61,617 bases of DNA from a virus (lineage: Duplodnaviria; Caudoviricetes), in the IMG/VR virus record IMGVR_UViG_3300037755_000275, positions 1 to 61,617 of that record, one strand, 5' to 3'. The notes under the pieces were generated by a model, which worked only from the letters and a program-made list of their open reading frames with translations, did no database searches and was not told where the DNA came from. The position numbers and the translations under genes were made by a program. How positions within the stretch are numbered: position 1 is the stretch's first letter; each line of letters starts with the position of its first letter. This document shows, piece after piece, positions 1,593 through 60,500 of the stretch.

Positions 1593-1890
1593 TACCCAAT
1601 TCCATGATTAAAACACCGTAGGCCGTGTCCGTGAGCCATAGGGTGTGGCCGTAGTACCAAGGTTCTAAGGACGTGGCGGTCGATCCGTGGGCTAGTTCAA
1701 CGGATAGGCAAAGTAGGTGGTAATGGTGAAGACGCGACCGACAAGGGACATGGACAAGTAAAACGTGGGCGTGTGCTGGTGCGGCGGTGATGGGATGTAC
1801 CCATAGCGAATGGGGATCAGGCGCGGGATGGCGCGGTCCCAGGCCGTGGGAGCCTGGTCAGGTGTAGGGTTTGGTGTTGGGTCGGCCATG

Positions 1891-2376
1891 TCACTTCCAC
1901 CTGGTCCCGTGGGGCGTGTACTCCGGTATGGTGAGTTTCCGGCCCGGCGACCACTTCTCAAATTCCTGGGTCGCCTTGGTCCATTCGATGGTCCAGTCAT
2001 CGGGGACGGTGCGGAAATTACACCGGGAGCATTCGTCTATACAGGTGCCACAGCCGTAGATGATCTTGCGGGTGTGCTGGAAAGCATAGATGTGGGCTGG
2101 GTGGTGGTTGCTGGCCTGCATGGCCCCGGCCGTCTTGGCCAGGAAGGATTCCATGTGGGGTTGCTCACGGGGGTGGTCCCGGAAATTCTCGTCCCAGAAT
2201 TGGGGGTCTGAGGATTCGTAGTCACGGCCAAAGGTTTCCGTGAACAGGGACCGTAGATGGATCAGGTAGCGGGTAACCTTGTCCGGCAGATCCACCATGT
2301 AATAGGGAGTACGGCGGGTGCGCCGGGTGACGTTGATGCGGCGCGGGCGTCGGACGAAATCACTATGACTAGACAT
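1891..2376 (-). CDS. Hypothetical protein
   Basis: Operon-coupled ORF with a Cys cluster (GCGTCIDECSRC). Confidence 0.6.
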   Translation of the reverse strand: MSSHSDFVRRPRRINVTRRTRRTPYYMVDLPDKVTRYLIHLRSLFTETFGRDYESSDPQFWDENFRDHPREQPHMESFLAKTAGAMQASNHHPAHIYAFQHTRKIIYGCGTCIDECSRCNFRTVPDDWTIEWTKATQEFEKWSPGRKLTIPEYTPHGTRWK

Positions 2377-2560
2377 TAGACCCACCTATTACGGCTTGGG
2401 ATTCGACCAGCGGCCCACGGCGGTAGTTACCTTTACGGGCAATGGTCCTCCACCCTGGGGACAGGCACCGGGGGCAGACTTTGGGGTCATCTACCCGTGG
2501 ACGCCACTTGTGGCCGCAGCGGAGGCAATGGCAGTGGCCGGTATCTGTGGTGCTTGCCAT
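2369..2560 (-). CDS. Small Zn-ribbon protein
   Basis: CLRCGHKW...PKVCPRC (two CxxC pairs). Confidence 0.65.
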   Translation of the reverse strand: MASTTDTGHCHCLRCGHKWRPRVDDPKVCPRCLSPGWRTIARKGNYRRGPLVESQAVIGGSNV

Positions 2561-2624
2561 GGGAGCCAGTATAGCACAGGACCTATTGCTAGTGGTCCTA
2601 TTAACGGGGTACAATACCCATACT

Positions 2625-2879
2625 ATGCCTAGAGGGACCCGTAAGGCCATGGAAGGCCAACCGCTGCGCCTGTGCCAGTTCCCACGATGCAGGAAAGGTG
2701 CTGGGGAACGCCGTTGGTTTGCACCCAAGACCCCGGAGCATGTCTACTGTTCAGAAAGCTGCAAAGTACAGCATTGCTGGGACCGGGCATTGAAGAAGAA
2801 GGAACAGGAAATTGAGAGGCGGGTCCGGCGTGAGGCTGCCAGGCAATTGCTACGGGGTGGGGGCAGCCCCCGTAAGTAG
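2625..2879 (+). CDS. Small Zn-finger protein, divergently transcribed
   Basis: CQFPRC...YCSESC. TTGCTA-18-TACAAT lies upstream at 2586-2615. Confidence 0.55.
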   Translation: MPRGTRKAMEGQPLRLCQFPRCRKGAGERRWFAPKTPEHVYCSESCKVQHCWDRALKKKEQEIERRVRREAARQLLRGGGSPRK

Positions 2880-4669: not shown

Positions 4670-5055
4670 TCGTATAGCATCCCACCACAGTTTGAACAAA
4701 CGTCATCATAGCCAGTGCCCCGGCCGGAGAACCCAGAACCACGACACAAGTGGCATATCTCCTTTAATTCCCCCACCAGTTTTACCAACACGTCCCCGTG
4801 ACACGACTTGGGTTTACAGACACAGCCTAGTGTCTTGCCAACCAACTCGTGCAGATCACCCATCAGCTTTTCATTTCTACGAACCCACAGCTCGTAAAGG
4901 AATATGGAATCTGCCCGAGTCTTGACCTGCCACCGCGCCCTGGTTCTGTGTAACGGTAGGTGTGTATATGGGTTGCTCCACTTGGACGGGCGGCAGATAT
5001 CCACGTCATAGGGCTCTTTCTTTTTGTTGACTACCCTGGTTACTGGTTTGGTCAT
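4666..5055 (-). CDS. DUF4326-like protein
   Basis: YDVDICRPSKWSNPY...LVGKTLGCVCKPKSCHGDVL. Confidence 0.8.
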   Translation of the reverse strand: MTKPVTRVVNKKKEPYDVDICRPSKWSNPYTHLPLHRTRARWQVKTRADSIFLYELWVRRNEKLMGDLHELVGKTLGCVCKPKSCHGDVLVKLVGELKEICHLCRGSGFSGRGTGYDDVCSNCGGMLYE

Positions 5056-6497
5056 GCCGCCATGTCCTCCATGCTGCCCCAGCGTTCCCCCATATCTGCG
5101 CTGGCCTTAATGGGCACGTCCAACGGAACCTGTCCTTCCATAATCGGCTTGCACACCCCCAGTGTCCAGTCGGTGGCCACCTGTTCCCCCTTGCATTCAA
5201 ACATCAGCTCATCGTGGATCTGCAACAATGGTCGGACTACTTCCCCGTCTCTATGTGCCACCTCCCGCCTACCACGTGTAACGGCCACGGTCTTTTTATG
5301 ATTAAAACTGGAGCGGCGGTCCTCGATTTCTGCCATGGCCAGTTTGAGAATATCCTGGGCACTACCCTGGACGGGCTGGTTGGCACCTTCGCGGAAACCA
5401 GCACTACGGACCCAGGATAGTGTGGACTTGCCCTGGGGGATGAGGCGGTGGCGGCCAAACATGGTCCAGACACAGCCATGGCGGCGGACGCGAAGGTCTT
5501 GAAGGTTCTGCCAGTCAGCAATGTAGGGGCGGGCGGCGTAGAAGCCCTTGATGAGTTTGCCACAGCGTGAGGTGGACCAGACTTCATAGGTGGGGATGCC
5601 ATCCACGGAATAGATGTCGTCCACGGCGTAGGATTCGATGATGGTGGTTTGGAGGCCATCGGGGCCAATGCGGTAGGCAACACCGAAACCGATGTTTTTG
5701 GATGGCAGACGGTATTTGAGTTTGCCTTCCGGGGTGTTGACTACTTCAGGGGTAAGGCCGAAGACGCTGCACGCGGTCTGGGTGTGCATGTCCCAGCCAG
5801 GGGTGTGGTAGCCGGTGACCATGGATGGTTCACCGGACAGGTGGGCCAGTACACGCATTTCGATCTGGGACAGGTCGATAGCGGACAAGACCCAGCCCTG
5901 TTCGGCTATGAAGGCTTTACGGATCTCACGGCCCAGGGCGGATTTCTTGGGCAAGTTCTGGAGGTTGGGGTCCTCAGAGGCTAGACGGCCCGTGGTGGTC
6001 GTGGTGGCCTTGAACCGGGTATGGATACGCTGGTTGGCGTCCATGACGCGGGGCAGGGTATCGGCGTAGGTGTTTTTGATCTTGGCGTATTCGCGCCACT
6101 TGAGAATGATGGGGACCACGGGATGGGCGGTCCAGTAACGTTGCAGGACTTCGGAGCCAGTGGCTTCCCAGGATTGGGAGTCGGTGAGCTTGACGGGTTT
6201 GTTGCCCTGGATACGGAGTTTGTGGAAAAGCAGGTCAGCAACGTGTTTGGGGGAGGAGATATTGAAGTTGTAGCCAGGGGGGAGCTGGTCGGCTACCTCG
6301 ATTTCCTTTTCGTCCATTAGGATACGGAGCCGGATGGATAGCTTGCGGAGGTGGGCGGTGTCCACGCGGATTCCGTGGGAGTGCATGGCATCAATCATGG
6401 GGAGAGCACCCATGTCGATACGGCGGACGTTTGATGGAGAGGGGCGGTCCACGAGACGGACGCCGTTGTAGAGTCTAGCCATTATTTTCAAGGTCAA
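5052..6497 (-). CDS. polA: Family A DNA polymerase, polymerase domain (split enzyme)
   Basis: TTTGRLASEDPNLQNLP; motif A DLSQIEMR; motif B KNIGFGVAY (Phe762 equivalent retained); NQPVQGSAQD; motif C QIHDEL. Confidence 0.95.
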   Translation of the reverse strand: MTLKIMARLYNGVRLVDRPSPSNVRRIDMGALPMIDAMHSHGIRVDTAHLRKLSIRLRILMDEKEIEVADQLPPGYNFNISSPKHVADLLFHKLRIQGNKPVKLTDSQSWEATGSEVLQRYWTAHPVVPIILKWREYAKIKNTYADTLPRVMDANQRIHTRFKATTTTTGRLASEDPNLQNLPKKSALGREIRKAFIAEQGWVLSAIDLSQIEMRVLAHLSGEPSMVTGYHTPGWDMHTQTACSVFGLTPEVVNTPEGKLKYRLPSKNIGFGVAYRIGPDGLQTTIIESYAVDDIYSVDGIPTYEVWSTSRCGKLIKGFYAARPYIADWQNLQDLRVRRHGCVWTMFGRHRLIPQGKSTLSWVRSAGFREGANQPVQGSAQDILKLAMAEIEDRRSSFNHKKTVAVTRGRREVAHRDGEVVRPLLQIHDELMFECKGEQVATDWTLGVCKPIMEGQVPLDVPIKASADMGERWGSMEDMAA

Positions 6498-11140: not shown

Positions 11141-11983
11141 CTAGGTAACCTTACCCCTAGCCCTTGTGCGTGCCCGTATCCTGGCCACGATCTCCCTGGC
11201 CCGCTTCGGTGTAATCCCATCAATCATAGCCCAGCGTTCCCAGTCAGCGTTGAACATATCCTGCCCACTAAGGAATATCTCCTCACAGGCTTTGGACCGT
11301 TCCCAGGCCACCCCTGGGATCTCCTTAGCCACACACCTGATAAAACTGGGCTCCACGTTCCCCGGCGGCCTCACATGAGCCGGAAATCTCAAATGAGACT
11401 TGTGCTGATCCCACTTCTTTGATGCAAAGTGATGCCACAGAATAAATATCTCCATGGCCGTCTCCTGCGGCGTCCTGGTCTTGATAATCTGTACCGGGGT
11501 ATGCAGCCGTAACGTGGTCAAGTGACTGTCCAACGCGGCAAAGTGCATGGCCCGTGTACCCCATACCTGTTCCTTCCACCTGGTCCTACCCCCACGTTGC
11601 CCGGCCGGTAGCTCCAGCCTCAATGACTCCGGGTTCGCCCTGTACCACCCTTCTATGATTAAAAAGCTGAAATCGTAGACATGGAGCATGGCGGGGAGTT
11701 GGCCACCCGCGTACCGGCCCGATTCCATCGAACCAAGCATGTCACGGACCCGTTTGCGTTCAATGCCTACGGAGCACAGGCCGTCTGGGCCGTTGGGGGA
11801 CATGAAACAATAGTCACCGGCCTGGATCTTGCGGCTACGGTCTTCGGGGTGTGGGTACTGGAGCCGTTTGGACGTGATGGCCAGTTTGGTTCCTGAGAGT
11901 TGGACTATTTCACGCAGGAGCATGGTCATCTCCACACGGTTGCGGGCGTTGTCCTCGCGGTCGTCTACGTAGATGGTTGGCAT
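11141..11983 (-). CDS. ERCC4/XPF-type structure-specific nuclease with HhH motifs
   Basis: VDDRE, GDY, IERKRVRD, IIEG; C-terminal IPGV and IDGI HhH motifs. Confidence 0.85.
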   Translation of the reverse strand: MPTIYVDDREDNARNRVEMTMLLREIVQLSGTKLAITSKRLQYPHPEDRSRKIQAGDYCFMSPNGPDGLCSVGIERKRVRDMLGSMESGRYAGGQLPAMLHVYDFSFLIIEGWYRANPESLRLELPAGQRGGRTRWKEQVWGTRAMHFAALDSHLTTLRLHTPVQIIKTRTPQETAMEIFILWHHFASKKWDQHKSHLRFPAHVRPPGNVEPSFIRCVAKEIPGVAWERSKACEEIFLSGQDMFNADWERWAMIDGITPKRAREIVARIRARTRARGKVT

Positions 11984-17027: not shown

Positions 17028-17059
17028 GAGTTTGGCCGGGGGTCCCTCTCCCCTGTGTA

Positions 17060-19720: not shown

Positions 19721-19783
19721 ACAGCTACACCTCGTAGTTGGTGGGTAACAGGGCGTAGGACCCTGTTCCGCAGCGACTTATCC

Positions 19784-40081: not shown

Positions 40082-40082
40082 G

Positions 40083-42302: not shown

Positions 42303-42342
42303 TTTTATGATTAAAACTCCTGCCCCGTGTCCCGTATACCGG

Positions 42343-46138: not shown

Positions 46139-46178
46139 GATCTGTGGTCTCAGTTCGTTTTAATCACTAAACTCCAGG

Positions 46179-47381: not shown

Positions 47382-49684
47382 TACCTGTAAGCCGCCCGCC
47401 AACCATTTTTGATGCTCTTTTCCAACCGCGCCTTATGGGCACTGGCGCTGGAGTATCCACGTTTCTTGAGTCGTGATACAGCCTTCCTTGCAGAGGCTAC
47501 GGTGTTGCCAACCCACGCGATGTTGTTGAACCCCGTGGTTGCATAAACTACGTAGCCTTCCCGGTAATCCAGTACTCCGGGATTAGACCGTCGCCTCCCC
47601 TTCCGTGCCATCCCCGCCATTCTCTTAGCCCCATACTTGCGTCTGCCGATTGATGTACACAGACCACCAGGACTACGCACCCCACGGCGCTTCATGGTGG
47701 ATACACATTTGCGGAACCTGGAACCGGTGCCCAGCTTGCCTTTACCAAATGACGGGTTGGCTTTATACCCACGTTCAATTTGCTTGTATCCCACAAAGCG
47801 ATTACCATCCCACCGATGGATAGAGGCTTCCCCTTGTTTTTGTGCTACTGCTTCCGCCTTACTCAAGGCAGCACGTAGCGTGGCATGGTAGGAATGCTCT
47901 CCGCGCCCACGCCCGTTGAACACCATGTACTTTTTTATTGGATTGGATGACCGTGACGGGTTACTCACCCTGCGAAACTGTTTCCGCCACCCACGCTTGA
48001 ACCCGGCCGGTAGCTTGGCCTCAAACCCCTTGACTGCCTTGTGACCAGCAGCCAACAGCTTTTTCATGGCCTTCTGGGCTTCAGTGGCAAGACGACCAAC
48101 CCAGGCCACGGAGTTGCCGACCTGGACCACGTAGCCTTTGCGTGGGTTGTTGACACGGGTATGGGGGTTGGTCCGCCGACGCAGCACGGACGCGGCATTG
48201 CGGCGTCGTGAATTTGGCCTGGCAACCTTGGACCCATATTTGTATGCACTGCCACCAATCTCAGCCAACCCATCTGCTGCACCTACCCGCCAGTTGGCCA
48301 AGTAACTCCGTTGCAGCTCAGTACGCATACTTGGAATCAGATTCCTGTAGGAACCAAACTCCCTTTTAATGGCCGTCTCAATTTGTGACTGGGATGGTGC
48401 CTGTCTCTTGCCACCACGTTTGCCTACCTTGAACCCAGCACGATAGGCTACGGTGCTGAGGGCTTCATAGGAGGGATTGCGTAACCTCCCACCCTTGGCC
48501 ACACTCCTGGTCCCAATCCCTGCATCCCGTCCCCGGCCACGTGGATTCTTGGCACCAGTTGGGTTTATCCACGACTTGGCTTGTCTGAGCGTGTCTGTCT
48601 GCCACACCAACTTTGACTGGTAATACACGTCATAGGAGGTTCGGACACGGCCATCGCCACTACGTCCCCTCTTTTTGACAATCACAAATCCCATGTAGGG
48701 GATACGAGTTGGATTCATCACCCGTGCCCCTACCGACCGTCCAATACGGCCGGCCACGGCCCTGGCGCTGGGTCCGGCTACAGTGCGGCGTGGACGTACA
48801 CCCGGATTGCGTTTCCTGGGACTTGACCCAGTACCGATTACTACCCGCACCCTGTCATCACCGGAACGCCCTTCTTGCCTGTTGATGATGTTGGCCGTTT
48901 CTTCTGCTTCCTTCCTGGACGTGTACCGATACATTGAGCCATGCTTCCGATAACCAATCGGCTCAGGTCCGGGAGTACGCATCTTGCCTTCAGCGACCCA
49001 GTAGTAGGTTGGCCCCTTGCCGGGATTCCTACCCCGAATAATCCTGGGCCTGTCCTTCTTCGGCGGCGTCGGCGGCTTTTTGGTCCTGGGCGGAATCCAC
49101 GCCCGTCTTGCAGCAAGTACCCCGCCGGCTTTTGGCAACCCATACCCGTACCCTGGACCCGTGGCCGTGGCCGTACCGACCGTGAATATCGGGTTCTGTC
49201 TCCCACGCCCTGTAACCCGACTTGCCTTCTTGAACTGTTCCCGCCACCCGACAACCGGCACCTTGCCGCTGACCGGGTTAGGCCCAACCTTTTTAATCAT
49301 GCAAATGCCGAACCCGGCGCGTTTGAGTTTGGTCTTGGCCTTGGTCGTGTCAGGTTTGGAGGCAGAGACGTAGGCCAGGGTGCCTTTGCAGTAGACACCC
49401 CATTTGTGACCGGCGCGGGACTTGGATCGTGGGTTGGTGCGTCGTGTCATGGTGCGCCTACCTCGTGGGTTTCTTTTCTTGGGCAACTTACCACCAAGTT
49501 CGATCACGGTTTGTTCAATGGCTGACTTCCACGCCGGGTGGATCGTAGTACGCAATTGTCCAATCGTTGGTGACCCCGGATAGCTTGCTGAAATTCTGAT
49601 TGAGTCGTTGTACCCACGGCGCTCTGCCAACTTTATTAGTTGGTTCTGAATCTTCCGAAGGTATGTGCGTTCGGCGTCCGTCAC
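47381..49684 (-). CDS. NP-punctuated, highly basic polyprotein-like protein (767 aa)
   Basis: GTG start overlaps the upstream TGA at 49681-49684. 16 Asn-Pro dipeptides, mostly after K/R runs. Confidence 0.75.
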   Translation of the reverse strand: MTDAERTYLRKIQNQLIKLAERRGYNDSIRISASYPGSPTIGQLRTTIHPAWKSAIEQTVIELGGKLPKKRNPRGRRTMTRRTNPRSKSRAGHKWGVYCKGTLAYVSASKPDTTKAKTKLKRAGFGICMIKKVGPNPVSGKVPVVGWREQFKKASRVTGRGRQNPIFTVGTATATGPGYGYGLPKAGGVLAARRAWIPPRTKKPPTPPKKDRPRIIRGRNPGKGPTYYWVAEGKMRTPGPEPIGYRKHGSMYRYTSRKEAEETANIINRQEGRSGDDRVRVVIGTGSSPRKRNPGVRPRRTVAGPSARAVAGRIGRSVGARVMNPTRIPYMGFVIVKKRGRSGDGRVRTSYDVYYQSKLVWQTDTLRQAKSWINPTGAKNPRGRGRDAGIGTRSVAKGGRLRNPSYEALSTVAYRAGFKVGKRGGKRQAPSQSQIETAIKREFGSYRNLIPSMRTELQRSYLANWRVGAADGLAEIGGSAYKYGSKVARPNSRRRNAASVLRRRTNPHTRVNNPRKGYVVQVGNSVAWVGRLATEAQKAMKKLLAAGHKAVKGFEAKLPAGFKRGWRKQFRRVSNPSRSSNPIKKYMVFNGRGRGEHSYHATLRAALSKAEAVAQKQGEASIHRWDGNRFVGYKQIERGYKANPSFGKGKLGTGSRFRKCVSTMKRRGVRSPGGLCTSIGRRKYGAKRMAGMARKGRRRSNPGVLDYREGYVVYATTGFNNIAWVGNTVASARKAVSRLKKRGYSSASAHKARLEKSIKNGWRAAYR

Positions 49685-50331
49685 CGTTTCCCCCGATAGG
49701 TCCCACCACCGACGCCACCACTGAACGCAATCGCCAGCAGGATCATCCCCGCTGCCAGTACCGCAAACTGTCCACCTGCGCTGGAAGGCAACATGCTTTT
49801 CAACTGTTCCGGCAGATACTCCTCCAGTCCGGCCATGGACACGGGAGCACCACCGGGAGCACTGGGCCTCGATACTTGCGCCAGGTACATGGACTACTTC
49901 CTCCGGGACATGGCCATGAATACCAGCACGCCAACCCCGACCAGGGCCACGGTCCCAACTGAGAACCCGGTGGCAAAACCTTCCGGCGTGGCTACCCCAT
50001 ACTGCTGCGACGACAATGAACCCGGAATGATGGGCAACGACGGCTGCGTACCTTCCGGCTGCTGGTAGTAGATGGTCCCCTGCGGCGTTGTCTGCACCAC
50101 GGTCCCAGGTCCATACTTGAACCGCGTGCTGACTGTCTCCACGCCAGTCTTGATGAGATCCTGCCACCAGGTCTGGCCCATGCCACGGGATGCCAGGTAG
50201 CCACGTAGGCCGCCGGATGGTTCATGTCCGCCGGGGACACTCATCGTGCCCTCTAGCGACTGTGCCGAGAATGCACGCCGGATGCGCTGAGCCTGATTGC
50301 CTACCGTGTAGCGGCCAACGACAGCGGCCAT
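49681..50331 (-). CDS. Two C-terminally anchored membrane proteins (49681-49890 and 49894-50331)
   Basis: FAVLAAGMILLAIAF; RGMGQ...VALVGVGVLVFMAMSRRK. Confidence 0.7.
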
Positions 50332-50333
50332 GG

Positions 50334-51029: not shown

Positions 51030-51248
51030 GGGTCAAGGCCAGATCCCTCCAGGGGAAACGCGCCTGGTACGCGGCCCCCCGCCGGCCTCAACCCACTACC
51101 TGGAACACACTGATGGACCATTCGACCCTGACACTGACAGAGGCCAAAGGTTGCAGTCAATATCTACTAGTGTTATATATATGTCCATACGTGCCTGTTG
51201 AACAACGTAGCCTGTACGGTCTGTTGCATACCATATGAAAGGACCACA

Positions 51249-53237
51249 ATGGCTGCAAAAAAGACCCCCACAGCTCGTGGCAAAGTCAAAAAAACCAAGC
51301 TGACAGGGCCACCTCGGAAGCCTGCAAAGTACCTGCGGACGGTTCGGGCGGGCGGAAACGCCCCAGACGATGATTCTGAGGGCCTGGAGCTGGAACTAGG
51401 CCCAGAGTTGGTGTCCGACGACCCGGTTGACGATCCTGGGGCCGGACCAAGCGATGATTTTGAGGATCTGCCGCAGGAACCGCGCCGCCGGATGCCCCCT
51501 GCCCCACCCCGTGGCAGACGACTACCGACCATCTTCCCCAACCCAGGCGGATTCAAACTCTCCTGGGACAAATTCCACCGCTACTGGGAGCAGTGCCACC
51601 AGAACCCAGAGCTACGGCCCCGCCTCAAGGTCTACGGTTACCGCACCTTCCCCGTGATGCTGGAAGACAACCGCCGGGTATTCATCGGTGTCCACGATCC
51701 GTCCGAAGACCCGGCCGCCGGGGAGATCCCCAACAAGCCGCTGACCATAGACGACGTGGCCCGCATGTTTGGGTCCGGCGACTACCATTTCAAGATCAAC
51801 GACCGTGGGGCCAACAACCAACCTATCTGCAACTGCAATCTGCTGGGACGCGGCCCGCTTGCCGATTTCAACACCTATCCGCCTATTCTGGACATCGGGG
51901 TAATCGACCCGGCCCACCCGTCCAACGCGACTTACATCAAACAGATGAAGGCCAAGAAAAACTGGGGTTCTGAGGAGGAGGAAAAAAAGACCATGGAACA
52001 GGTAGACAAGCTGCTGGACCGGCTGGACAGGGCCAACGAGCGCCTGTACAAGTCACGGGAGCATGACCGCTCCTCCAGTGATGAGGGACGGGCGGCCGAG
52101 GTGGTAGCCCATGGGGCCAAACGTGCGCTGGACCTGGTAGCCGACGCCGCCAGCCGCACCTCCGGGGGCGGTGATAGTGGTATCCAGACCTTTGTAGGCG
52201 TGGCTACGGCGTTGGCCGAACTGCTCAAGTCCACCAAGGGTGAACCTGGACAACTAGAAACAATCATGGCCGTGTATCAAAAGGCGTCGGACGCCGAACG
52301 CCAAGTGCTCACGGCACAATTGGATATGATGCGTGAGGAGCTGCGGGCGTCACGGGAGGAGCGGAAACAGGACCAGGTGAACCGTAACCCGGCCGTCACT
52401 GGTGAGCCTGATGACCCATTCAAGAACCTGCGTCAGTTGGCGGAACTCCGGGAAATCTTCCAGGACACTTTCCAACCGGGATCACAGCGTTCGTCCAAGT
52501 TCAACTGGTTTGAGGCACTAGCCCCGATGGCTATGCAGGTCATCAGTCCGCTGGCCCAGGCAGCTACTTACTATTTCCAAGCCCAAGCAGCACGGTCCAG
52601 CGGGCAGGCTCCCCCGCCACCGCCGGACATATCCCAACAGCCTGGGATGAACCCGGCCCAACTCCCACAGCCTCAAGGTCAGACTCCCAACCCCCAGGGC
52701 CAGCAGGACTTCCAGCAGTTCATGGCGGAACTGACCCCACGTATCCTGCGCTTCATCAATGACCCAGAACGCAGCGGAGCCGACTTCGCTGACTTCTTCC
52801 TGGACTGGCAGGGTGATGCCACCTATGACCAATTGACCCAGATTGCACCAACGCCGCAGGAATCGGTGGAAGCCGTCCTGATGCAGTTGCGGACCTATGA
52901 GCCCCTGTGGCGGAACTTGGCATCACGGGAGCAGTACGTACGTCAATTCCTGTATGAGTTCCTGACTGCGTTTGACGAAGCCACGGACCAGGAGCCGGCC
53001 CCTGGACCACAAGCCATGCCCAATGGCCACGACCCCATGGCCGGTACAGTGGCCCCCGAATCACAAGTAACTATGGGGTCCAGTGGATCTGTACCAGGCA
53101 CTACGGGACCACCTCCCGGCTGGCAACCCAACCATGAAAGCACCTTTGGGCCGGACGCCACCCCAGCCCCCAGGGCCAGGACCAAGGGGGGCCGTAAAAA
53201 AACTTCCGCCACCCCTTCCAAATCCCGTGGCACATAG
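51249..53237 (+). CDS. Large hypothetical protein (662 aa; coiled coil, Pro/Gln-rich)
   Basis: Start MAAKKTP follows GAAAGGA; divergent from the virion operon. Confidence 0.8.
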   Translation: MAAKKTPTARGKVKKTKLTGPPRKPAKYLRTVRAGGNAPDDDSEGLELELGPELVSDDPVDDPGAGPSDDFEDLPQEPRRRMPPAPPRGRRLPTIFPNPGGFKLSWDKFHRYWEQCHQNPELRPRLKVYGYRTFPVMLEDNRRVFIGVHDPSEDPAAGEIPNKPLTIDDVARMFGSGDYHFKINDRGANNQPICNCNLLGRGPLADFNTYPPILDIGVIDPAHPSNATYIKQMKAKKNWGSEEEEKKTMEQVDKLLDRLDRANERLYKSREHDRSSSDEGRAAEVVAHGAKRALDLVADAASRTSGGGDSGIQTFVGVATALAELLKSTKGEPGQLETIMAVYQKASDAERQVLTAQLDMMREELRASREERKQDQVNRNPAVTGEPDDPFKNLRQLAELREIFQDTFQPGSQRSSKFNWFEALAPMAMQVISPLAQAATYYFQAQAARSSGQAPPPPPDISQQPGMNPAQLPQPQGQTPNPQGQQDFQQFMAELTPRILRFINDPERSGADFADFFLDWQGDATYDQLTQIAPTPQESVEAVLMQLRTYEPLWRNLASREQYVRQFLYEFLTAFDEATDQEPAPGPQAMPNGHDPMAGTVAPESQVTMGSSGSVPGTTGPPPGWQPNHESTFGPDATPAPRARTKGGRKKTSATPSKSRGT

Positions 53238-53301: not shown

Positions 53302-53338
53302 GCGCCCCATGGTAACCACCGTGGGGCGTTCGTCTTTT
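53302..53338 (+). terminator. Rho-independent terminator between convergent genes
   Basis: GCGCCCCATGGT-AACC-ACCGTGGGGCGT followed by TCGTCTTTT. Confidence 0.7.
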
Positions 53339-53343
53339 GGGGA

Positions 53344-53628
53344 TTAAAACTCTGTGGCCGTAGATGTTGGTAGCAGTGGCAGGTTAAACTCGTTACTGTA
53401 CTCACTGTGGAGGCACAGGTCGTGATCGTGGTGGGATATGAGGAAATCGAGACAGCGGCCAATCTGACGGTTGCCTGTCAGGTTAAGGTCAAAGTGTGCT
53501 GCATTGGATAGTGGGACTATGTGATCCCGGAGCAGCCACAGCTCATTCAGCATTTCCTCCCCGTGGTTGGCCTCATGATCGGATACCTCGTCACAGGTCC
53601 TACAACGATAACCCCAGTAGCAACTCAT
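53344..53628 (-). CDS. Hypothetical protein
   Basis: MSCYWGYRCRTC...FLISHHDHDL; GAAAGG RBS. Confidence 0.55.
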   Translation of the reverse strand: MSCYWGYRCRTCDEVSDHEANHGEEMLNELWLLRDHIVPLSNAAHFDLNLTGNRQIGRCLDFLISHHDHDLCLHSEYSNEFNLPLLPTSTATEF

Positions 53629-54961: not shown

Positions 54962-56023
54962 TTACTCCACCAACGCCCCGTACTTCATCAGCCGCCGGCA
55001 CATGGTCTTGTTCGTACCCTTGCCGCCCAACCAGGCCAGGAATTGCTTGCCCAGCTCCACGGTCTGGCCTTCCTTGTCCTGTTCGGCCATCGTGGGGTTG
55101 GTCTCAACCAAGTTGGCCAACTGGGTAAAGAACACCTGGACTTCCTTGCGGCTCCGGCCCCGTTCCTCAGACGGCGTGCGGCCCTTTTTGGGTTTGGCAG
55201 TCTTCCCCTTACCACCTTTGGCCTTACCAGCCTTGGGGGCCTTTTCCGCCGCTTCCCGCCGTGCCTCTGACACTGCCTCCCTGGTCACACGGCCACCTTT
55301 GGCCTTGGCAGCCTTGACCACTTCCTCCCGCGTCTCCTCATCGGCGCTGGCCAGCTCATAGGCAGCAGCCACCCCGATCTCCCCGCTGTGAATCTTCTTC
55401 TGGATATCCGCCGGCAGAGTCAGCAGCTTCAACGTCTGTGAGATCCAGGACGCCGACCGGGGCTTGCCGCCCTTGCCATAGAGTTTGCCTACTTCCTCAC
55501 GGGACTTGCCAAACTCCGTGGTGAGCCGGTCAATGTTGTAGGCGTCATCAATGGGGGTGGTCGATTGGCGCTGGATGTTCTCCAACACGTTCTTGGTGTA
55601 GGCGGCGTCATCGTCGCCCTTGACCAGGATACAGTCAATCAGGAAGGACTCACCACTTTTGGCCAAGCCCATTTCCTCGATCTCCAGGGCCGCCGCATGT
55701 CGCCGGAACCCATAGGCCACGGCCACGCCGTCCTTGGTCTGCCGTACCCCGATGGGCTGAAGCTGTCCCACGTCCGGGTTGAGGAAATCCCGGATCAGGT
55801 CCTTGGTGTCAGTAGATCCATACTTGCGCCCGTTCATTTCCTTGGGTACTAAAATGGCGCTTGGGGGTAGCCGGTAGACATTCCCCTTGGATACGGCGGC
55901 GCTGGTGATCGTCAGCACCTTGGGGCTGTCCGGCGGCTTGGGTCCGCGTCTGGACTTCAGGGCCTTGGGTGGTGCCACGGATTCCGTGGCGGGGGTCGTG
56001 GATTCGGTTTCAGGCATCGTCAT
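54962..56023 (-). CDS. ParB/Spo0J-like protein with HTH
   Basis: GQLQPIGVR, AYGFRRHAA, ENIQRQ..TPID, SASWISQTLKLLTLP. Confidence 0.88.
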   Translation of the reverse strand: MTMPETESTTPATESVAPPKALKSRRGPKPPDSPKVLTITSAAVSKGNVYRLPPSAILVPKEMNGRKYGSTDTKDLIRDFLNPDVGQLQPIGVRQTKDGVAVAYGFRRHAAALEIEEMGLAKSGESFLIDCILVKGDDDAAYTKNVLENIQRQSTTPIDDAYNIDRLTTEFGKSREEVGKLYGKGGKPRSASWISQTLKLLTLPADIQKKIHSGEIGVAAAYELASADEETREEVVKAAKAKGGRVTREAVSEARREAAEKAPKAGKAKGGKGKTAKPKKGRTPSEERGRSRKEVQVFFTQLANLVETNPTMAEQDKEGQTVELGKQFLAWLGGKGTNKTMCRRLMKYGALVE

Positions 56024-56240
56024 TTTTCCTTTTCTATGGTTAAAATGGTTCATGTGGTCAGGGGTTGGTTAGGCTGCCCCTTCCAACAGGTCATAGAGGC
56101 CACGCTGGCCATGGGGCAGGGAATGGTCAAAGAAACAGGCACGGCAGCGCCCGTCAATGTCGGATAGGCGGCGGGTGCCACCTAGAGGTTGGCCACAGTC
56201 GATACAGGTTACGTGATCCGTGGCATGGTCCGTGGGGCAG

Positions 56241-56594: not shown

Positions 56595-56665
56595 GGGGTT
56601 TTGGGTCCTCTCTAGCTGTGTCAAGAATAGCCCGGATCAAGGGATGGGCGCAAGGGGTTTGGGTG

Positions 56666-57583
56666 CTATTTTTTCACCAACTTCACTACCTTGGCCCACT
56701 GCCGGTGAACCTCCCCTAAAGTCTCACGCTGTACTGCCTCTGCACGGCAAGCGCCGTCCCAAATGTCAGGGTCCCGTAAGTCGTTGATTTTGTCACGGAT
56801 AAGCCCCACCAGCACTGATGGTTCTAAGGCATCCAGCTCCCAGGACTCATCCCCGTACTTGTCAATGTAGGGGCCGGAGCGGGAGTCGGTCACCTTGGCC
56901 GGATTGGGCGGCGGGTTGTACTCCTGGACCTGATCCATGTTTAGGGCAATACGGTGGACAGTGATGTGCCAGGAGGCAGAATGCCCAGCGCAGAACAGCC
57001 GTAATCTGTCCCGGATATCCCTGGTCATGTCAATACCGGACGGATCGTGGTCCCCAAGGTGGATGATATGGCACTTACGTCCTTCTCTCTGGCAGTTGAC
57101 CAACCGCATAGCCGCCGACCACATTTCCGACTGTGACGTGTAGCCACGGCACGAAAAGTACGGTACGTCTTCAGCGCCACATACGCCTTGGATCACGCCG
57201 ACCAGGGCGTCTTTCTCAATCCACACTTCCACGTAGTTGGGTTGCTCGGCCCATTTGTTGATCTGGTAGGCACGGGCACAGGACTCAATGATGGACTGAG
57301 GAGACGACCAATGGCCGTTCTGACGCATGTTACGGGTCCGGTCCACGATGTAGTCCCAGTCGATCAGGCCGGCCAACCGTGCATCGGAGACAACGCCGCC
57401 CAACTTCTTGTATTCCGCGTCCTTGTTGGGGATGAACCCGCGTGCCACAAATTGGTAGTACAGTTGGCGTAGGGTGAGATCAAATCCCTGGGCCGCGTAC
57501 TCCTCCAGGATCTCGTTGGCGGTAGTGATTGTGGCCAACCCGGCGGGGCTGAAGTTCTTATAGGTGTAGCAGATTTTGGGCAT
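56666..57583 (-). CDS. wHTH + TOPRIM protein (topoisomerase VI-A/Spo11-like)
   Basis: TLRQLYY, VEVWIEKDAL, RGY, GDHDPSG, WELDAL. Confidence 0.85.
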   Translation of the reverse strand: MPKICYTYKNFSPAGLATITTANEILEEYAAQGFDLTLRQLYYQFVARGFIPNKDAEYKKLGGVVSDARLAGLIDWDYIVDRTRNMRQNGHWSSPQSIIESCARAYQINKWAEQPNYVEVWIEKDALVGVIQGVCGAEDVPYFSCRGYTSQSEMWSAAMRLVNCQREGRKCHIIHLGDHDPSGIDMTRDIRDRLRLFCAGHSASWHITVHRIALNMDQVQEYNPPPNPAKVTDSRSGPYIDKYGDESWELDALEPSVLVGLIRDKINDLRDPDIWDGACRAEAVQRETLGEVHRQWAKVVKLVKK

Positions 57584-57587
57584 TGAC

Positions 57588-60500
57588 TTACCACCTGTAC
57601 AGGTTTGGGAATTGGTCCTTGATCCTCTCCCACTGCCGACGCCGGAACCGCAATAGGGATACGTAATCCAGCCACAGCAAAGCCCGTCTCAACAGGGTGG
57701 GCCTCGATTCACCGGGCAGGGGTTCCGGCTCAGGCCATTGAGCTGGGGTTGTCATTTGACCACCACTTTCCAGTCGGCAGTCGGGAAGTGAACCTGTCCC
57801 TGGTGCTGTAGTTCCACCAGCCACGGCCATGCAACCCAGAACACATACACGGCCAGGCACCCGAACACAGCGGCTATCCCCAGCCGCCACAGGATCAGCA
57901 GTAGGCGTCCGATGTAGATGGAGGCCCGCCAGCCAAGGTACATCCCGGCAATGGCCAGGACCAGGATGATGAGAGAGAAAATGTCGAATGTCATCTCAGA
58001 TTTTCCTTTCCACATAAACATCTACTTCACGTCGTATCAGCAGTGCCTCTGACCCTTCATCCCAACGTAATATGAGTCTTGTGCCATGTGGCCAAGGGAC
58101 CATTTCTGGTGGAACGGTTATGAGATTAGTGCGCCTAATAGACCGAAAGGTGGTGGTGGCTATAAGCCTCTTCTCACGATGTTTACGCTGTCCTTTTTTC
58201 ATGCCGCCCTACCCACCGTCCCCCCATGAACCTTGTACATTTTCTCGGCTGTCCCCACAGGGTCCTTGGCATCAGCATTGTAGGCAACCGAAAGGCAAGT
58301 CTGCCACAGCTTTTGGTCATCCGGGTCTGTGTGGAGCCAGATCCAGGCTGTACAATCTTCCGGTTTCCCATCGCAGGATGCTGACCGCATAGCACGCTTG
58401 GAGGCTTCAGCCGTCGGCACACCCGATGCTGCAATCCTGTCCATGCGCTCCTTGTGGGCCTTCAGCGCCTTGCGGGTCACCCGGTCAGTGGTCTGGTAGT
58501 CGCGATTGTTGCCTAGACTCATGCCGCCATCCTGTTACTGATCGCCCACCTTAGAGCTGAATCAAAGTCCCTACCCCGTACCGCCTGCTTGGCCAACCCT
58601 CTGGCGTCACCCTGGCTCATTCCAAGGTTGACGAGGGTGGACTGGACTTCGGTCCGAAGTCTTTCTGGTACTTGTCTACGAGATCCTTGGCGCAGTGCAG
58701 GACTGTTGCTGGATTCTTTGCTGTAGCTGCTTTCAGGGCTGCTTGCAGAACCTCGTGCCTTAATCTCCTCAATAGCCCCAGGCACTTGGGACACGTTACT
58801 CTGTCCTGGTCCGTAGTGCCTATCTTGAATGGGTTTCGGGTGGGAAGTTCGCCGCACAACACAACTAGAACATAGCCCCACTTTCCTGGAGCCCTCATCC
58901 GCTTTCTTGTGGTCAGGTAATGCATACATCCCCCTGGATTTGGAGGCAGGCGGCCGGCGTGTGCCATGGACCGACGTTTGGGACGTGTGCCGTCCGGTTA
59001 GCCGCCTACGCCGGCCGCCCACCATGGAACGGCTCACGTATCGGGTGAGCCTGACCGCCCAGCCGGGGTGGATGAGGGCCAGCACAAGGCCCAGGACCCC
59101 GGCCAGGACTATGCACAGGATGGATAGGAATGTGGAGAGACGACCAGGGTGGGTCACTTGGACGCCCCCTTATTGACTTCCTCAGTGATTGCTCGTAGGC
59201 ATGGTGAAGTCGAACCACGATGCTCGTGCAGGCGACCAGTCAGCAAATAAAACACAGCGTTGTGAAGCGTAGTCACAGCATCACTGTTGACAGGTCTCTG
59301 GCTGGCTGCCTGGTAAGCACAGCGTTGAAGGATGCGGATGGCATCCTGTCGATCTTTCCATGTGTTCTTCATGTCCCCAGTATGCCCTCTCCCCATCCCC
59401 TGCTCCATCCATATCTCACCCTATTTGCGCGGCGCAAGATCACCTAGAAAGAGTAGTCGTGGTACTTCTCCCGCGTCCCGATCAGCAACCCATTTCCGGC
59501 CCGGTTCCGGTATCCCTTCTTGGTCGTCTGAAATACATGGACCTTGCCCTGGGGGTCAGCCTCATAGGCATAGTCCTGGTTCTCACTCATGCCATTGCTG
59601 TCGGTACGGGTAGCGTTGTCTTCCTGGACATGGACCTGGGTCCTGGTAACCCTGATGATTGTCCCAGCATGACGATCTGTCCAGCAGAGGATCGTAGCTC
59701 CCATGCCGACTTCCGGCGTAGTGCCAACTACCCGGCTGTAGATATGATTGATGACGCTTCCGGTTTCCGTGCCTGCTTTGAGCATTTGGTGTGCCCTCCT
59801 GTATCTAATTATGCCTTTCCAGTTCCACCAAACCAATAGGACTTTGGTCTCAATTTCTATGATTAAAACTACCTAGGGACTAGCCTAGGGTGCAGCCTTT
59901 TTGCGCCAGCGCCGTGGCATGTCCTGATCCCCTACCTTAGCCTCATGTTTCAGTTCCGCCAACGCCTTGGACACCATCTGGATAGCACACCCACGGCCAC
60001 AGGCAGCGTCGGCGTTGGGGTCGGCTGACAGGTCCTTGTAGTTCTCAGTGACATGGACCGGGCGCACTGTGATGGACTTGGGGGACGTGAACACGATATA
60101 CCAACCGTTGGCCTCAGCCTTGTCCGCGTCACAGTTGCCGCAGGATAGGACGGGTTTGGTTTCAATAGGCATCAGGATTTCCCCTTGTCAAAGTAGACCA
60201 ACAGTTTCTCCCTCGCGTCATCCCAAGCCTTTTGGGCCTTCTCGTGCTCCTTCCACAGTTTGGTAGGTACTTCCCTGACTGTGAAACTGGAGTCAGTAGC
60301 TTCGCTGAAGAAGTGTGTGTACCATTCATCGTGGTCTATACAGACACGGACAGTGCGGGATTTAATGGGCATGGCGGCCCTCCCATTCCGGTTTGGCTAC
60401 AGCTACATGGCCCTCCAAGGACATTACACAGCGCCAACGTGACCACACCCAGCGCCGACTCATGACACGGATAGGGTCACGGTGGGCACGCCGGAACAGC

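What the first reader, a model, noticed from the sequence alone, without database searches (positions are those of the whole stretch)
1604..59868. A dispersed pseudo-palindrome marks repeated GC-skew inversions: multiple origins or genome-organising sites?
Seen: ATGATTAAAA occurs exactly 8 times, plus about 6 near matches (consensus TTTYTATGATTAAAAC, near-dyad TTTTwATnATwAAAA). In a GC-rich 61-kb genome far less than one copy is expected by chance. Copies are mostly 3-4 kb apart, with two ~6.3-kb gaps and one ~10-kb gap. They occur in both orientations, inside genes and right before start codons (32206, 42302). At most copies the plus strand switches from C-rich to G-rich, even within one ORF. 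Hand counts on selected 60-nt lines left vs right: 49291 C27/G10 to C9/G25; 22064 C28/G10 to C11/G26; 15679 C23/G10 to C13/G26; 11655 C26/G15 to C12/G25; 5298 C23/G11 to C12/G25. The flip is unclear at 42307, 56036 and 59859. Known: a C-to-G skew switch is the signature of a bidirectional replication origin. Inference: the virus may start replication or load a helicase at a dozen sites. Alternatively, a dimeric protein (ParB-like, XRE HTH or D5 helicase) may bind them as parS-like or packaging signals that organise the genome into loops.
Basis: partly seen in the sequence, partly recalled or inferred. Interest (0 to 1): 0.92.

Follow-up and report, generated by a model that had tools for sequence, protein, structure and literature searches.

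The report
Phage motif marks strand-skew switches
A short DNA motif scattered 14 times around this 61-kb phage genome sits where the G-versus-C balance of the two strands flips, and related phages show the same with their own motifs, so these sites probably mark places where DNA copying starts.

Summary
ATGATTAAAA occurs 8 times (0.01 expected); a weight matrix separates 14 sites (TTtnnrTGATTAAAAc) from everything else. The window is a circular or terminally redundant phage genome with nearly all genes on the minus strand.

At the sites the plus strand jumps from C-rich to G-rich, within about 25 nt. The jump persists at four-fold degenerate codon positions (G/C 426/586 left, 702/384 right, p=3e-25; A/T unchanged). 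It occurs inside genes such as DNA polymerase A, and does not depend on motif orientation. Amino-acid composition and gene orientation therefore do not explain it. It is individually clear at 8 to 10 of 14 sites.

Three related phage genomes show the same coupling with different 13-nt motifs (p=1e-19 to 1e-59). Between neighbouring sites the skew falls almost linearly from +0.32 to -0.34, a kilobase-scale copy of the "N-domain" sawtooth linked to replication origins.

The motifs are built like the KorB operator (TTTT-N7-AAAA), and each genome encodes a ParB/KorB-family protein.

Best reading (about 0.4): the sites are protein-bound start points of outward DNA synthesis. This is not proven; no read-level data were available.

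The parts
1600..1614 (+). Motif site 1 (ATTCCATGATTAAAAC). It lies in non-coding DNA 134 nt upstream of minus-strand ORF 976..1467. A skew jump is present.
   Evidence: All-site jump +0.56 at W=200. Four-fold skew -0.05 to +0.34, p=0.037.
5293..5308 (+). Motif site 2 (a perfect 16-mer), inside the DNA polymerase A gene 5052..6497(-). It encodes FNHKK at the start of a 17-aa insertion. Strong skew jump.
   Evidence: Pfam DNA_pol_A E=3e-87. Insertion shared only with the 96% and 79% identical relatives. Four-fold skew -0.20 to +0.74, p=4e-8.
11650..11665 (+). Motif site 3, inside the ERCC4-nuclease gene 11141..11983(-). G003 has a site about 10 aa away in its homologue. Skew jump present.
   Evidence: Four-fold skew -0.22 to +0.38, p=1.5e-4.
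15674..15689 (+). Motif site 4 (GTGATTAAAA variant), inside the Rad3/DinG-type helicase gene 15270..17126(-). G003 has a site about 6 aa away. Skew jump present.
   Evidence: Four-fold skew -0.16 to +0.46, p=7.5e-5.
19886..19901 (+). Motif site 5 (ATGGTTAAAA variant), in the roughly 590-nt non-coding stretch 19721..20313. No skew jump.
   Evidence: Four-fold p=0.36.
22059..22074 (+). Motif site 6 (CTGATTAAAA variant), inside ORF 21826..22533(-). Strong skew jump.
   Evidence: Four-fold skew -0.41 to +0.46, p=1e-7.
32206..32221 (+). Motif site 7 (a perfect 16-mer), 2 nt upstream of the ATG of ORF 31853..32206(-). It marks the end of a 3-kb strongly C-rich stretch.
   Evidence: Four-fold skew -0.44 to +0.10, p=6e-4.
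35952..35967 (-). Motif site 8, in reverse orientation. Its ATG may be the start codon of ORF 35297..35971(-) (MIKN...). The skew jump has the same sign as at plus-oriented sites.
   Evidence: Four-fold skew -0.35 to +0.29, p=4.5e-5.
42302..42317 (+). Motif site 9 (a perfect 16-mer), 2 nt upstream of the ATG of the 739-aa ORF 40083..42302(-). No skew jump. G004 has a site 7 nt upstream of the start of its homologue, and G003 has one near the start of its homologue.
   Evidence: Four-fold p=1.
46157..46172 (-). Motif site 10 (GTGATTAAAA variant, reverse orientation), 20 nt upstream of the ATG of ORF 45005..46138(-). Moderate skew jump.
   Evidence: Four-fold skew -0.14 to +0.33, p=0.0017.
49290..49305 (-). 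Motif site 11 (reverse orientation), inside the long Arg-rich ORF 47381..50167(-). There is an all-site jump but no significant four-fold jump.
   Evidence: D=+0.43 at W=200. Four-fold p=0.66.
53335..53350 (+). Motif site 12 (GGGGATTAAAAC variant), in the gap after the end of the plus-strand ORF 51198..53237. Skew jump present.
   Evidence: Four-fold skew -0.21 to +0.32, p=0.003.
56031..56046 (+). Motif site 13 (ATGGTTAAAA variant), at the 5' end of the ParB-family gene 54962..56053(-). Weak skew jump.
   Evidence: Four-fold skew 0.10 to 0.45, p=0.051.
59854..59869 (+). Motif site 14, in non-coding DNA 71 nt upstream of ORF 59444..59785(-). No skew jump.
   Evidence: Four-fold p=1.
54962..56053 (-). 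ParB/Noc/KorB-family protein (N-terminal domain with GFRRHAA, plus the ParB HTH). It is the leading candidate for the motif-binding protein.
   Evidence: Pfam HTH_ParB E=5e-10 and KorB E=0.003. TIGR00180 63 bits, above its cut-off. PDB matches Spo0J 1e-11, ParB, Noc and KorB 5e-4.
56666..57583 (-). Mini-A (a stand-alone homologue of topoisomerase VI subunit A, Spo11-like). It is a possible DNA-cleaving partner but is absent from G004.
   Evidence: phrog_6247 E=4e-112. RQLYY, DHDPSG and SWELDAL in the translation match the family motifs quoted in PMC7671362. Present in G002 and G003, absent from G004 and G005.

Best explanation
The 14 motif copies are specific protein-binding sites kept at fixed places in the genome. 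They are most likely bound by the phage's own ParB/KorB-family protein. They are the points from which a strand-asymmetric process runs outward on both sides for 1-2 kb.

The most likely process is DNA synthesis that starts at the sites and proceeds in both directions. This could be many small origins, or site-specific priming or nicking used by forks moving either way. In any of these cases, the strand running 5'->3' away from a site spends more time single-stranded or is copied differently. Over evolutionary time it becomes G-rich and C-poor.

Shown here: the motif set, the sharp skew switch at synonymous sites, its independence of motif and gene orientation, the sawtooth between sites, and its recurrence in relatives with other motifs. 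Inferred, not shown: that the process is replication, and that ParB is the binder.
For: 1. Motif and skew jump coincide far beyond chance in the window.

2. The jump is at synonymous sites. Four-fold G/C is 426/586 left against 702/384 right (p=3e-25), and all eight four-fold codon families shift alike. It occurs inside polA, ERCC4, the helicase gene and ORF 21826..22533.

3. The sign is the same for both motif orientations. The three minus-oriented sites in the window show four-fold skews of -0.35 to +0.29, -0.14 to +0.33 and -0.09 to -0.02. In G003 the mean jump is 0.22 for 8 plus-oriented sites and 0.21 for 15 minus-oriented sites (my means of the values). The sign also holds next to the few plus-strand genes.

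4. The step is complete within about 25 nt of the motif, pooled over 61 sites in four genomes.

5. Between neighbouring sites the four-fold skew runs +0.32, 0.26, 0.17, 0.16, 0.11, -0.04, -0.01, -0.09, -0.19, -0.34. This is the N-shaped profile that the model for human N-domains places between two fixed origins (passages of PMC2764438).

6. Independent replication. G003 (TTCGGCAGGAGAA), G004 (TTTACGSCGTAAA) and G002 (TTCTCCSGGAGAA) show the same coupling at every mismatch threshold. Exact-match sites have a positive jump in 11 of 11, 8 of 8 and 5 of 6, with Fisher p between 7e-20 and 6e-59. These three motifs first surfaced as the most frequent 10-mers of their loci, not by their skew.

7. Sites are spaced more evenly than random (P=0.0016, 0.011 and 0.0056). 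Some lie at nearly the same place in homologous genes of G000 and G003 although the motifs differ.

8. No primase (Prim-Pol, DnaG zinc ribbon) and no T7-type RNA polymerase was detected in 5 of 5 genomes searched. This leaves room for an unconventional way of starting strands.

9. For the binder: a ParB-family gene is in all four coupled genomes. The motifs share the TTTT-N7-AAAA or TTY-N7-RAA build of the KorB operator, TTTTAGCGGCTAAAA (methods text of PMC11790492).
Against: There is no physical evidence. The public runs that hold this phage are kept only as low-depth contigs, so strand starts, nicks and copy-number peaks could not be read.

A and T do not change at four-fold sites (p=0.75 in the window; flat in all deciles). 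Simple cytosine deamination of an exposed strand should also raise T over A.

Each site is a single motif copy without an AT-rich unwinding region in the relatives, unlike classical origins.

Four of 14 sites in the window show no jump, including two of the three perfect 16-mers that lie directly before start codons. About half of the large jumps have no motif.

In the 10-kb gap the skew is flat near zero in the middle rather than declining linearly. This suggests lobes of 0.5-3 kb rather than forks that always run until they meet.

Sites are enriched in non-coding DNA just upstream of genes: 7 of 14 against 16% non-coding. That also fits a role in gene regulation.

Two relatives (G005, G007) have dispersed motifs of the same general kind with no skew coupling. 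Two family members (G006, G009) have neither.
Confidence: 0.4

Rival explanations
1. The sites are operator or centromere sites of the phage's ParB/KorB-type CTP-dependent clamp. They serve global gene silencing or partition, as KorB does on plasmid RK2. The skew is produced by some other site-anchored process that is not replication, for example an effect of clamp-covered DNA on repair or transcription.
For: A ParB-family protein with the GxRR box and ParB HTH is encoded in G000, G002, G003 and G004.

The motifs share the build of the KorB operator. Site 13 lies at the 5' end of the ParB gene itself.

Sites are enriched upstream of genes. G007, which has an HTH_ParB match, carries 12 dispersed motifs of the same build without skew coupling. 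G005, which has a weaker ParB-like tblastn match, carries 28 dispersed palindromes, also uncoupled. So such sites can exist without the skew.

The lobes reach 1-2 kb on both sides. From recall, a sliding clamp could cover that range.
Against: No known ParB, KorB or Noc function distinguishes the two DNA strands, so the skew is left unexplained. My searches found no paper linking such sites to skew.

The motifs in G000 and G003 are asymmetric in all copies, which is unusual for a homodimeric ParB site.

Binding was not tested, and I did not search for a ParA partner.
Confidence: 0.25
2. The sites are symmetric promoter-like elements that fire in both directions. Transcription-linked mutation, or selection for G-rich R-loop-forming RNA, makes the RNA-like strand G-rich on each side. 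Such transcripts could also prime DNA synthesis.
For: Outward transcription gives the same sign as outward replication. Half of the sites lie just upstream of genes.

On the minus strand the window motif contains TTTAAT 7 nt before the ATG at 32206 and 42302, which reads like a -10 element for a leaderless transcript (direct reading).

The lobes have a finite range of 1-2 kb.
Against: Nearly all genes point one way. The model therefore needs antisense transcription over about 1 kb of upstream genes that is as strong as sense transcription.

The relatives' motifs do not resemble promoters and differ between lineages. No T7-type RNA polymerase was found.

A sigma-70 pattern scan of 28000..47000, which holds four of the 14 sites, found no promoter at any of them.

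The jump does not track motif orientation. The region of ORF 37941..38552, which has a clear terminator just after it and may be the capsid gene, shows no coding-strand G excess.
Confidence: 0.12
3. Selection on RNA composition. RNA approaching a site from either direction is kept C-rich and G-poor so that Rho can load. This would make a protein roadblock at the site terminate transcription, as a stoperator-like insulator.
For: By symmetry, any RNA running toward a site is C-rich and any RNA leaving it is G-rich. From recall, dispersed repressor-bound stop sites are known in cluster A mycobacteriophages.
Against: The bias extends 1-2 kb and affects all four-fold codon families equally. That is far more than a Rho loading site needs (about 100 nt, recalled).

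Sense RNA is being translated, which blocks Rho. Selection on each synonymous site would be very weak.
Confidence: 0.07
4. Chance, amino-acid composition, gene orientation or an assembly artefact.
For: Some jumps without a motif lie near changes of gene strand, at about 25100 and 51900.
Against: The flip holds at four-fold sites at p=3e-25, and occurs within single genes. Circular-shift tests and a peak-first k-mer test both support the coupling. It is replicated in three other independently assembled genomes.

A control phage (Phobos) and most of the 71 PolA-related loci of 8 kb or more that I profiled have much flatter skew (sd 0.08-0.12 against 0.18-0.2).
Confidence: 0.01

Closest known systems
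Replication origins marked by a GC-skew switch (bacterial oriC; multi-origin archaea), and the skew 'N-domains' of mammalian genomes
   Same: There is an upward skew jump at a fixed site, and an N-shaped (sawtooth) profile between two neighbouring sites (passages of PMC2764438).
   Different: Here there are 10-23 sites per roughly 60 kb, domains of 2-10 kb rather than megabases, and a defined lineage-specific 13-16-nt consensus in single copy. There is no DnaA or Orc boxes and no unwinding element. G/C changes without A/T.
KorB operators (OB) of plasmid RK2, and dispersed ParB/Noc/SopB sites (e.g. the sopC sites of prophage N15)
   Same: A ParB-family protein is encoded. The sites are dispersed, 13-15 nt long, and built TTTT-N7-AAAA like OB, TTTTAGCGGCTAAAA (PMC11790492 methods text). 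They lie both near promoters and inside genes. The number of OB sites on RK2 (12) and the dispersed N15 sites are recalled; for N15 I saw only search listings.
   Different: No link between such sites and strand composition is described in what I searched. The motifs of G000 and G003 are asymmetric. I did not look for a ParA or KorA partner.
Baculovirus homologous regions (hrs)
   Same: They are dispersed, lineage-specific palindromic repeats in a viral genome that act as origins in assays and as enhancers bound by a dimeric viral protein (recalled; no paper read).
   Different: hrs are clusters of about 30-bp palindromes in a 130-kb insect-virus genome. I know of no skew coupling there.
Localized single-strand interruptions of phages T5, tf and LUZ24
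   Same: About a dozen sequence-specific sites are spread over a phage genome (abstract of PMC3517423 seen; the consensus sequences are recalled).
   Different: Those are nicks in one strand at asymmetric consensus sequences, and no skew coupling is reported. Nicks could not be tested here.
Phage-specific promoter sets (T7 group) and mycobacteriophage stoperators or start-associated sequences
   Same: They are lineage-specific dispersed motifs at syntenic positions in genomes with co-oriented genes, some inside upstream genes (recalled).
   Different: Those motifs have one orientation relative to transcription. Here the orientations are 11:3 (window) and 8:15 (G003), and the jump ignores orientation. 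No T7-type RNA polymerase was found.

Membership tests
Replication origin (skew-switch type) | The plus strand switches from C-rich to G-rich at the site. | tested here: met
   Clear at 8-10 of 14 sites in the window. Replicated in G002, G003 and G004.
Replication origin (skew-switch type) | A cluster of initiator-binding repeats next to an AT-rich unwinding element. | tested here: not met
   There is a single motif copy per site. The pooled profile shows no AT-rich flank beyond the motif itself, and the relatives' motifs are GC-containing.
Replication origin (skew-switch type) | Nascent strands start at the site, or copy number peaks there. | not testable with these tools
   All 14 runs found are kept as contigs. 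Depth is 0-7 and no molecule ends are listed.
Skew N-domain | An N-shaped skew profile between two successive fixed sites. | tested here: met
   The decile profile runs from +0.32 to -0.34, pooled over four genomes. The 10-kb gap of the window instead plateaus near zero.
ParB/KorB binding site (parS / OB type) | The same replicon encodes a ParB-family protein. | tested here: met
   G000. G003 and G004 have HTH_ParB at E=8e-11 and 1e-8. G002 has a tblastn match at 33% over 226 aa.
ParB/KorB binding site (parS / OB type) | A 13-16-bp inverted repeat. | tested here: inconclusive
   G002 and G004 motifs are palindromes. The G000 and G003 motifs share only the outer TTT/AAA or TTC/GAA arms and are asymmetric in all copies.
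ParB/KorB binding site (parS / OB type) | The protein binds the site and loads on it with CTP. | not testable with these tools
   No protein-DNA tool was available.
ParB/KorB binding site (parS / OB type) | A partner ATPase (ParA) or co-repressor (KorA). | not tested
   I did not search for one.
Phage RNA-polymerase promoter set (T7 type) | The phage encodes a single-subunit RNA polymerase. | tested here: not met
   PF00940 has no match in 5 of 5 genomes. The control genomes did not ring either, so the test is weak. No ORF of suitable size has any such hit.
Phage RNA-polymerase promoter set (T7 type) | All copies are oriented with transcription. | tested here: not met
   Orientations are 11 plus and 3 minus in the window, and 8 plus and 15 minus in G003, with nearly all genes on one strand.
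Localized nick sites (T5 / tf type) | Physical single-strand breaks at the consensus sequence. | not testable with these tools
   Only contigs were available.
Mini-A (type IIB topoisomerase A-like), for ORF 56666..57583 | About 300 aa with RxxY/FY at the catalytic tyrosine, E plus DxDxxG in the Toprim domain, and a C-terminal xWELDAL box. | tested here: met
   RQLYY, IEKD...DHDPSG and SWELDAL are in the 305-aa translation. The motifs are as quoted in PMC7671362. phrog_6247 E=4e-112.

The most novel reading that the evidence does not exclude
A family of uncultured phages starts DNA synthesis at 10-23 sequence-defined sites per 60-kb genome. Each lineage uses its own 13-16-nt KorB-operator-like motif, possibly read by a ParB-family clamp. 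This writes a kilobase-scale N-domain sawtooth into synonymous sites. It would be the first virus or prokaryotic replicon in which many origin-like start sites are defined by a simple consensus, and in which the link between initiation sites and strand skew can be read directly from sequence.
Probability: 0.35. Interest if true: 0.92.

Novelty: new variant of a known kind. Interest (0 to 1): 0.82.

Why it matters
If the sites are start points of DNA synthesis, these phages replicate in a way not described for any phage: many evenly spaced, sequence-defined initiation or priming sites instead of one or a few origins.

They would then be a small, tractable model for a long-standing question, namely how initiation sites shape strand composition. 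The N-domain problem of mammalian genomes would be reduced to 60 kb and a 13-nt motif.

If the sites are instead ParB/KorB sites, then a ParB-type clamp is tied to a strand-asymmetric process, which is not part of current ParB biology.

Either way there is a practical result. In this clade, sharp skew jumps predict functional DNA sites, and the motif changes between lineages while its positions are partly kept. That gives a natural co-evolution series for a DNA-binding protein and its sites.

Tried and rejected
Close relatives.
- A megablast of 20 kb against GenBank phages found nothing.
- tblastn of the 739-aa and 203-aa structural proteins found nothing.
- An exact scan for the 16-mer in IMG/VR gave 107 stretches, each with a single match. 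The only loci above 54% GC were the window's own. The next three, L042 at 53%, L086 at 51% and L051 at 49% GC, each held a single copy and were not followed up.
- The search for related loci with polA alone, and with the 739-aa alignment, found no relative in viral or metagenome contigs.
- The closest relatives (polA proteins at 96%, 78% and 60% identity; two relatives of the 739-aa protein) are known only as proteins from ENA or Logan assemblies, and their DNA could not be fetched. I therefore could not see whether the motif is kept in near-identical strains.

Read-level evidence. All 14 runs are contigs. Laying four of them on 1001-20000 gave short, low-depth pieces, no ends and too few variants for a substitution spectrum. 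The absence of listed molecule ends there says nothing either way.

Promoters and terminators. A sigma-70 and intrinsic-terminator scan of 28000-47000 found none at the four motif sites in that stretch. Counts were at shuffle level.

Mini-A as the driver. Rejected as necessary, because G004 lacks it. Rejected as sufficient, because phage Phobos carries it but has flat skew and no motif.

D5 helicase as the driver. Rejected as general, because no relative has it.

Break-and-resection models. A double-strand break or nick followed by 5'-3' resection would expose the opposite strand and give the opposite sign under a deamination model. I rejected these by reasoning, not by a test.

Fixed priming sites used by forks moving one way only. 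Disfavoured because the sawtooth is antisymmetric and the jump ignores motif orientation. Priming sites used by forks in both directions remain inside the best explanation.

Peak-first exact k-mer searches. They were underpowered in the relatives and found nothing in G006-G010. In L113 a motif (ATTCACCCGCAA...) was picked by its skew score, so it is only a lead.

Site sets in earlier calls. In some searches I used 14 of the 20 G002 hits with up to 2 mismatches. I had dropped six of them (3300, 14097, 14809, 16530, 39136, 39489) after seeing their jump values. In one search I also dropped sites closer than about 200 nt to a neighbour and used only intervals of 1.5-8 kb. One search repeats the tests with fixed thresholds of 0, 1 and 2 mismatches and no dropping, and the results hold.

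Literature. Searches on GC skew with phage, multiple origins, palindromes, sawtooth and localized nicks returned nothing describing motif-coupled skew jumps in a phage. Supplementary files were not opened.

Full report
**What the window is.** The window is a complete IMG/VR virus record of 61617 nt. Its first and last 127 nt are identical, so the map is circular or terminally redundant, with a unit length of 61490 nt. It holds no tRNA genes.

A self-trained codon-usage caller puts nearly all genes on the minus strand. The exceptions are 51198..53237 and 25523..26084.

Recognisable genes form a replication and recombination set:
- DNA polymerase A, with a separate UDG-plus-exonuclease ORF
- a Rad3/DinG-type helicase and a D5-type SF3 helicase
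- an ERCC4 nuclease, an AAA_24 protein and a Gp157 homologue
- a small serine recombinase
- a ParB-family protein and a 'DNA topoisomerase' PHROG

The structural proteins match nothing in Pfam, PHROGs or GenBank phages. The phage occurs at low depth in sediment and soil metagenomes.

**The motif.** ATGATTAAAA occurs 8 times against 0.01 expected. With one mismatch allowed there are 13 sites. A weight matrix built from 14 sites separates them cleanly, at 21.9 bits or more against 11.9 for the next hit.

The consensus is TTtnnrTGATTAAAAc. Eleven copies point one way and three the other.

Seven of 14 lie in the 16% of the genome that I call non-coding. Three sit 2-20 nt before a start codon (32206, 42302, 46157). 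At 35952 the ATG within the motif may itself be the start codon. One lies at the 5' end of the ParB gene. At least four are well inside genes (polA, ERCC4, the helicase gene, ORF 21826..22533).

The polA copy encodes FNHKK at the start of a 17-aa insertion. Only the 96% and 79% identical relatives share this insertion. Spacing is more even than random (CV 0.44, P=0.0016).

**The skew.** A 400-nt profile shows a sawtooth. The plus strand turns from C-rich to G-rich at most sites and drifts back before the next one.
- The mean jump at the 14 sites is 0.23-0.24, positive at 13 of 14. Only 3e-5 to 4e-4 of all circular shifts of the site set reach it.
- Of the 12 largest upward jumps (W=500), five lie within 26 nt of a site and a sixth lies 121 nt away.
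- Starting from the 16 largest jumps, the most enriched 8-mer is TGATTAAA (p=2e-6 among 5806 tested).

The effect is strongest at third codon positions. At four-fold degenerate sites within 750 nt, G/C is 426/586 on the left and 702/384 on the right (p=3e-25), while A/T is unchanged (p=0.75).

All eight four-fold codon families shift by a similar amount. Two-fold codons shift the same way: C/(C+T) goes from 0.50 to 0.64, and G/(G+A) from 0.68 to 0.53.

Amino-acid composition is therefore not the cause. Because the flip happens inside single genes, gene orientation is not the cause either. Individually the flip is clear at 8 sites, marginal at 2 and absent at 4 (19891, 42307, 49291, 59859).

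**Relatives.** No close relative could be fetched. An alignment of polA homologues brought in 80 loci from IMG/VR.

In several of the nearest loci the most frequent 10-mer was itself a dispersed motif sitting at upward skew jumps. I fetched nine whole records. By shared structural genes, G003, G004, G006, G007 and G009 belong to the same family as the window.

| Genome | Motif | Sites | Skew coupling |
|---|---|---|---|
| G003 | TTCGGCAGGAGAA | 23 | yes |
| G004 | TTTACGSCGTAAA | 10 | yes |
| G002 (partial record) | TTCTCCSGGAGAA | 14-20 | yes |
| G005 | 21-nt palindrome | 28 | no |
| G007 | TTTCCCTGTGAAA | 12 | no |
| G006, G009 | none found | - | no |

In G002, G003 and G004 the exact-match sites have a positive jump in 5 of 6, 11 of 11 and 8 of 8. 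The four-fold G/C contrast has p between 7e-20 and 6e-59 at every mismatch threshold, and A/T again does not change.

Most other PolA-related loci, and the control phage Phobos, have far flatter skew. In G003 the jump is the same for both orientations of its asymmetric motif: 0.22 for n=8 and 0.21 for n=15 (my means of the values).

Sites in the ERCC4 and helicase genes of G000 and G003 lie within 10 and 6 aligned residues of each other, although the proteins are only about 35% identical and the motifs differ. Sites also precede the homologues of the 739-aa gene in G000, G003 and G004. The sites are thus old, kept in place, and have changed sequence together within each lineage.

**Shape.** Pooled over 61 sites in four genomes, the step from -0.2 to +0.1 is complete within about 25 nt of the motif.

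Between neighbouring sites the four-fold skew falls almost linearly and antisymmetrically, from +0.32 to -0.34 by deciles, with A/T flat. This is the N-shaped profile that the mammalian replication-domain model places between two fixed origins (passages of PMC2764438).

In the 10-kb gap of the window the middle is flat near zero. The effect may therefore have a finite reach of 0.5-3 kb.

**Who binds.** The motifs share one build: TTTT-N7-AAAA or TTY-N7-RAA. The KorB operator of RK2, TTTTAGCGGCTAAAA, has the same build (methods text of PMC11790492).

All four coupled genomes encode a ParB-family protein. The window's protein aligns with Spo0J, ParB, Noc and KorB across the N-terminal domain, where GFRRHAA lines up with GERRYRA, and across the HTH.

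I therefore think the ParB-like protein is the most likely binder, but this is an inference.

The neighbouring 305-aa ORF is a Mini-A, a topoisomerase VI-A/Spo11-like protein. It carries all three family motifs. It is absent from G004 and present in the uncoupled phage Phobos, so it is neither necessary nor sufficient. The D5 helicase is unique to the window. G003 and G004 carry a UvrD-like helicase instead. No primase or T7-type RNA polymerase family was detected in five genomes.

**Mechanism.** On both sides of a site, the strand that runs 5'->3' away from it is G-rich. Any process that starts at the site and proceeds outward in both directions, exposing or copying that strand differently, gives this sign. 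Candidates are:
- bidirectional origins
- priming sites used by forks travelling either way
- nick-primed strand displacement
- break-induced synthesis

Models that resect 5' ends from a break give the opposite sign. Sense transcription cannot explain the pattern, because the sign ignores gene direction and flips inside genes. Divergent transcription from a symmetric element would fit the sign, but it requires strong antisense transcription.

I put outward DNA synthesis first (about 0.4). A ParB/KorB operator role with an unknown skew-making process comes second (about 0.25).

Several points remain unexplained:
- The skew is in G/C only. A bypass of UDG-made abasic sites that yields C-to-G changes would fit, but that is pure speculation.
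- Four sites in the window show no jump.
- About half of the large jumps have no motif.
- Some family members lack the coupling altogether.

**Novelty.** My literature searches found no description of motif-coupled skew jumps in a phage. The components are known: skew switches at origins, N-domains, and dispersed ParB/KorB sites. Their combination at this density, with a lineage-specific consensus, is to my knowledge not known.

Noticed in passing
window 56666-57583 (-): This is a Mini-A protein, a stand-alone homologue of topoisomerase VI subunit A (Spo11-like). It carries RQLYY, DHDPSG and the family-specific SWELDAL box, and lies two genes from the ParB-like gene. tblastn found homologues at 45-49% identity in 83 GenBank phage records (Pseudomonas, Xylella, Brevundimonas, Roseobacter and others). 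Its function is unknown.
   Followed up: partly
window 33600-53300 (structural region): No terminase, portal or capsid family is recognisable in any large ORF with Pfam or PHROGs, and GenBank phages have no match. Several ORFs are extremely Arg-rich with recurring R-R-N-P motifs (38683..39492, 40083..42302, 47381..50167). The virion type of this family is unknown.
   Followed up: partly
window 5250-5300 (polA codons after FNHKK): A 17-aa insertion in a variable loop of DNA polymerase A begins exactly at the motif. Only the two closest relatives share it (FNHKK and FNQKR). The site may have entered the gene together with the insertion.
   Followed up: partly
window 1614-1650, 12002-12043, 15762-15790, 32221-32260, 34655-34688, 38625-38658: A second family of short repeats (GGGCTACGG / CCGTAGCC-like units, often doubled) occurs in or near intergenic regions. 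Several copies lie directly beside motif copies.
   Followed up: no
window 19721-20313: This is the largest non-coding stretch, about 590 nt. It lies upstream of the D5-type helicase operon, holds site 19891 and a direct repeat (GAGTTACCAG twice), and shows no skew jump.
   Followed up: no
window about 7100 and about 25100: Two strong upward skew jumps have no recognisable motif. Both fall inside the unusually long gaps between motif sites, so they may be cryptic or diverged sites.
   Followed up: partly
G005 (L205-L208) and G007 (L216-L219): These related phages carry 28 copies of AAAGTGTAATSATTACACTTT and 12 copies of TTTCCCTGTGAAA respectively, dispersed like the window's motif but with no skew coupling.
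   Followed up: partly
window 3-707 (-) and 47125-47313: The ORF at the window's start has collagen-like Gly-X-Y repeats. ORF 46179..47402 contains a tandem duplicated 60-nt segment that encodes GINSRVQDTAWLLSHV twice.
   Followed up: no
window 1-127 and 61491-61617: An identical 127-nt direct repeat lies at both ends. It is probably an assembly overlap of a circular or circularly permuted genome rather than a biological terminal repeat.
   Followed up: no
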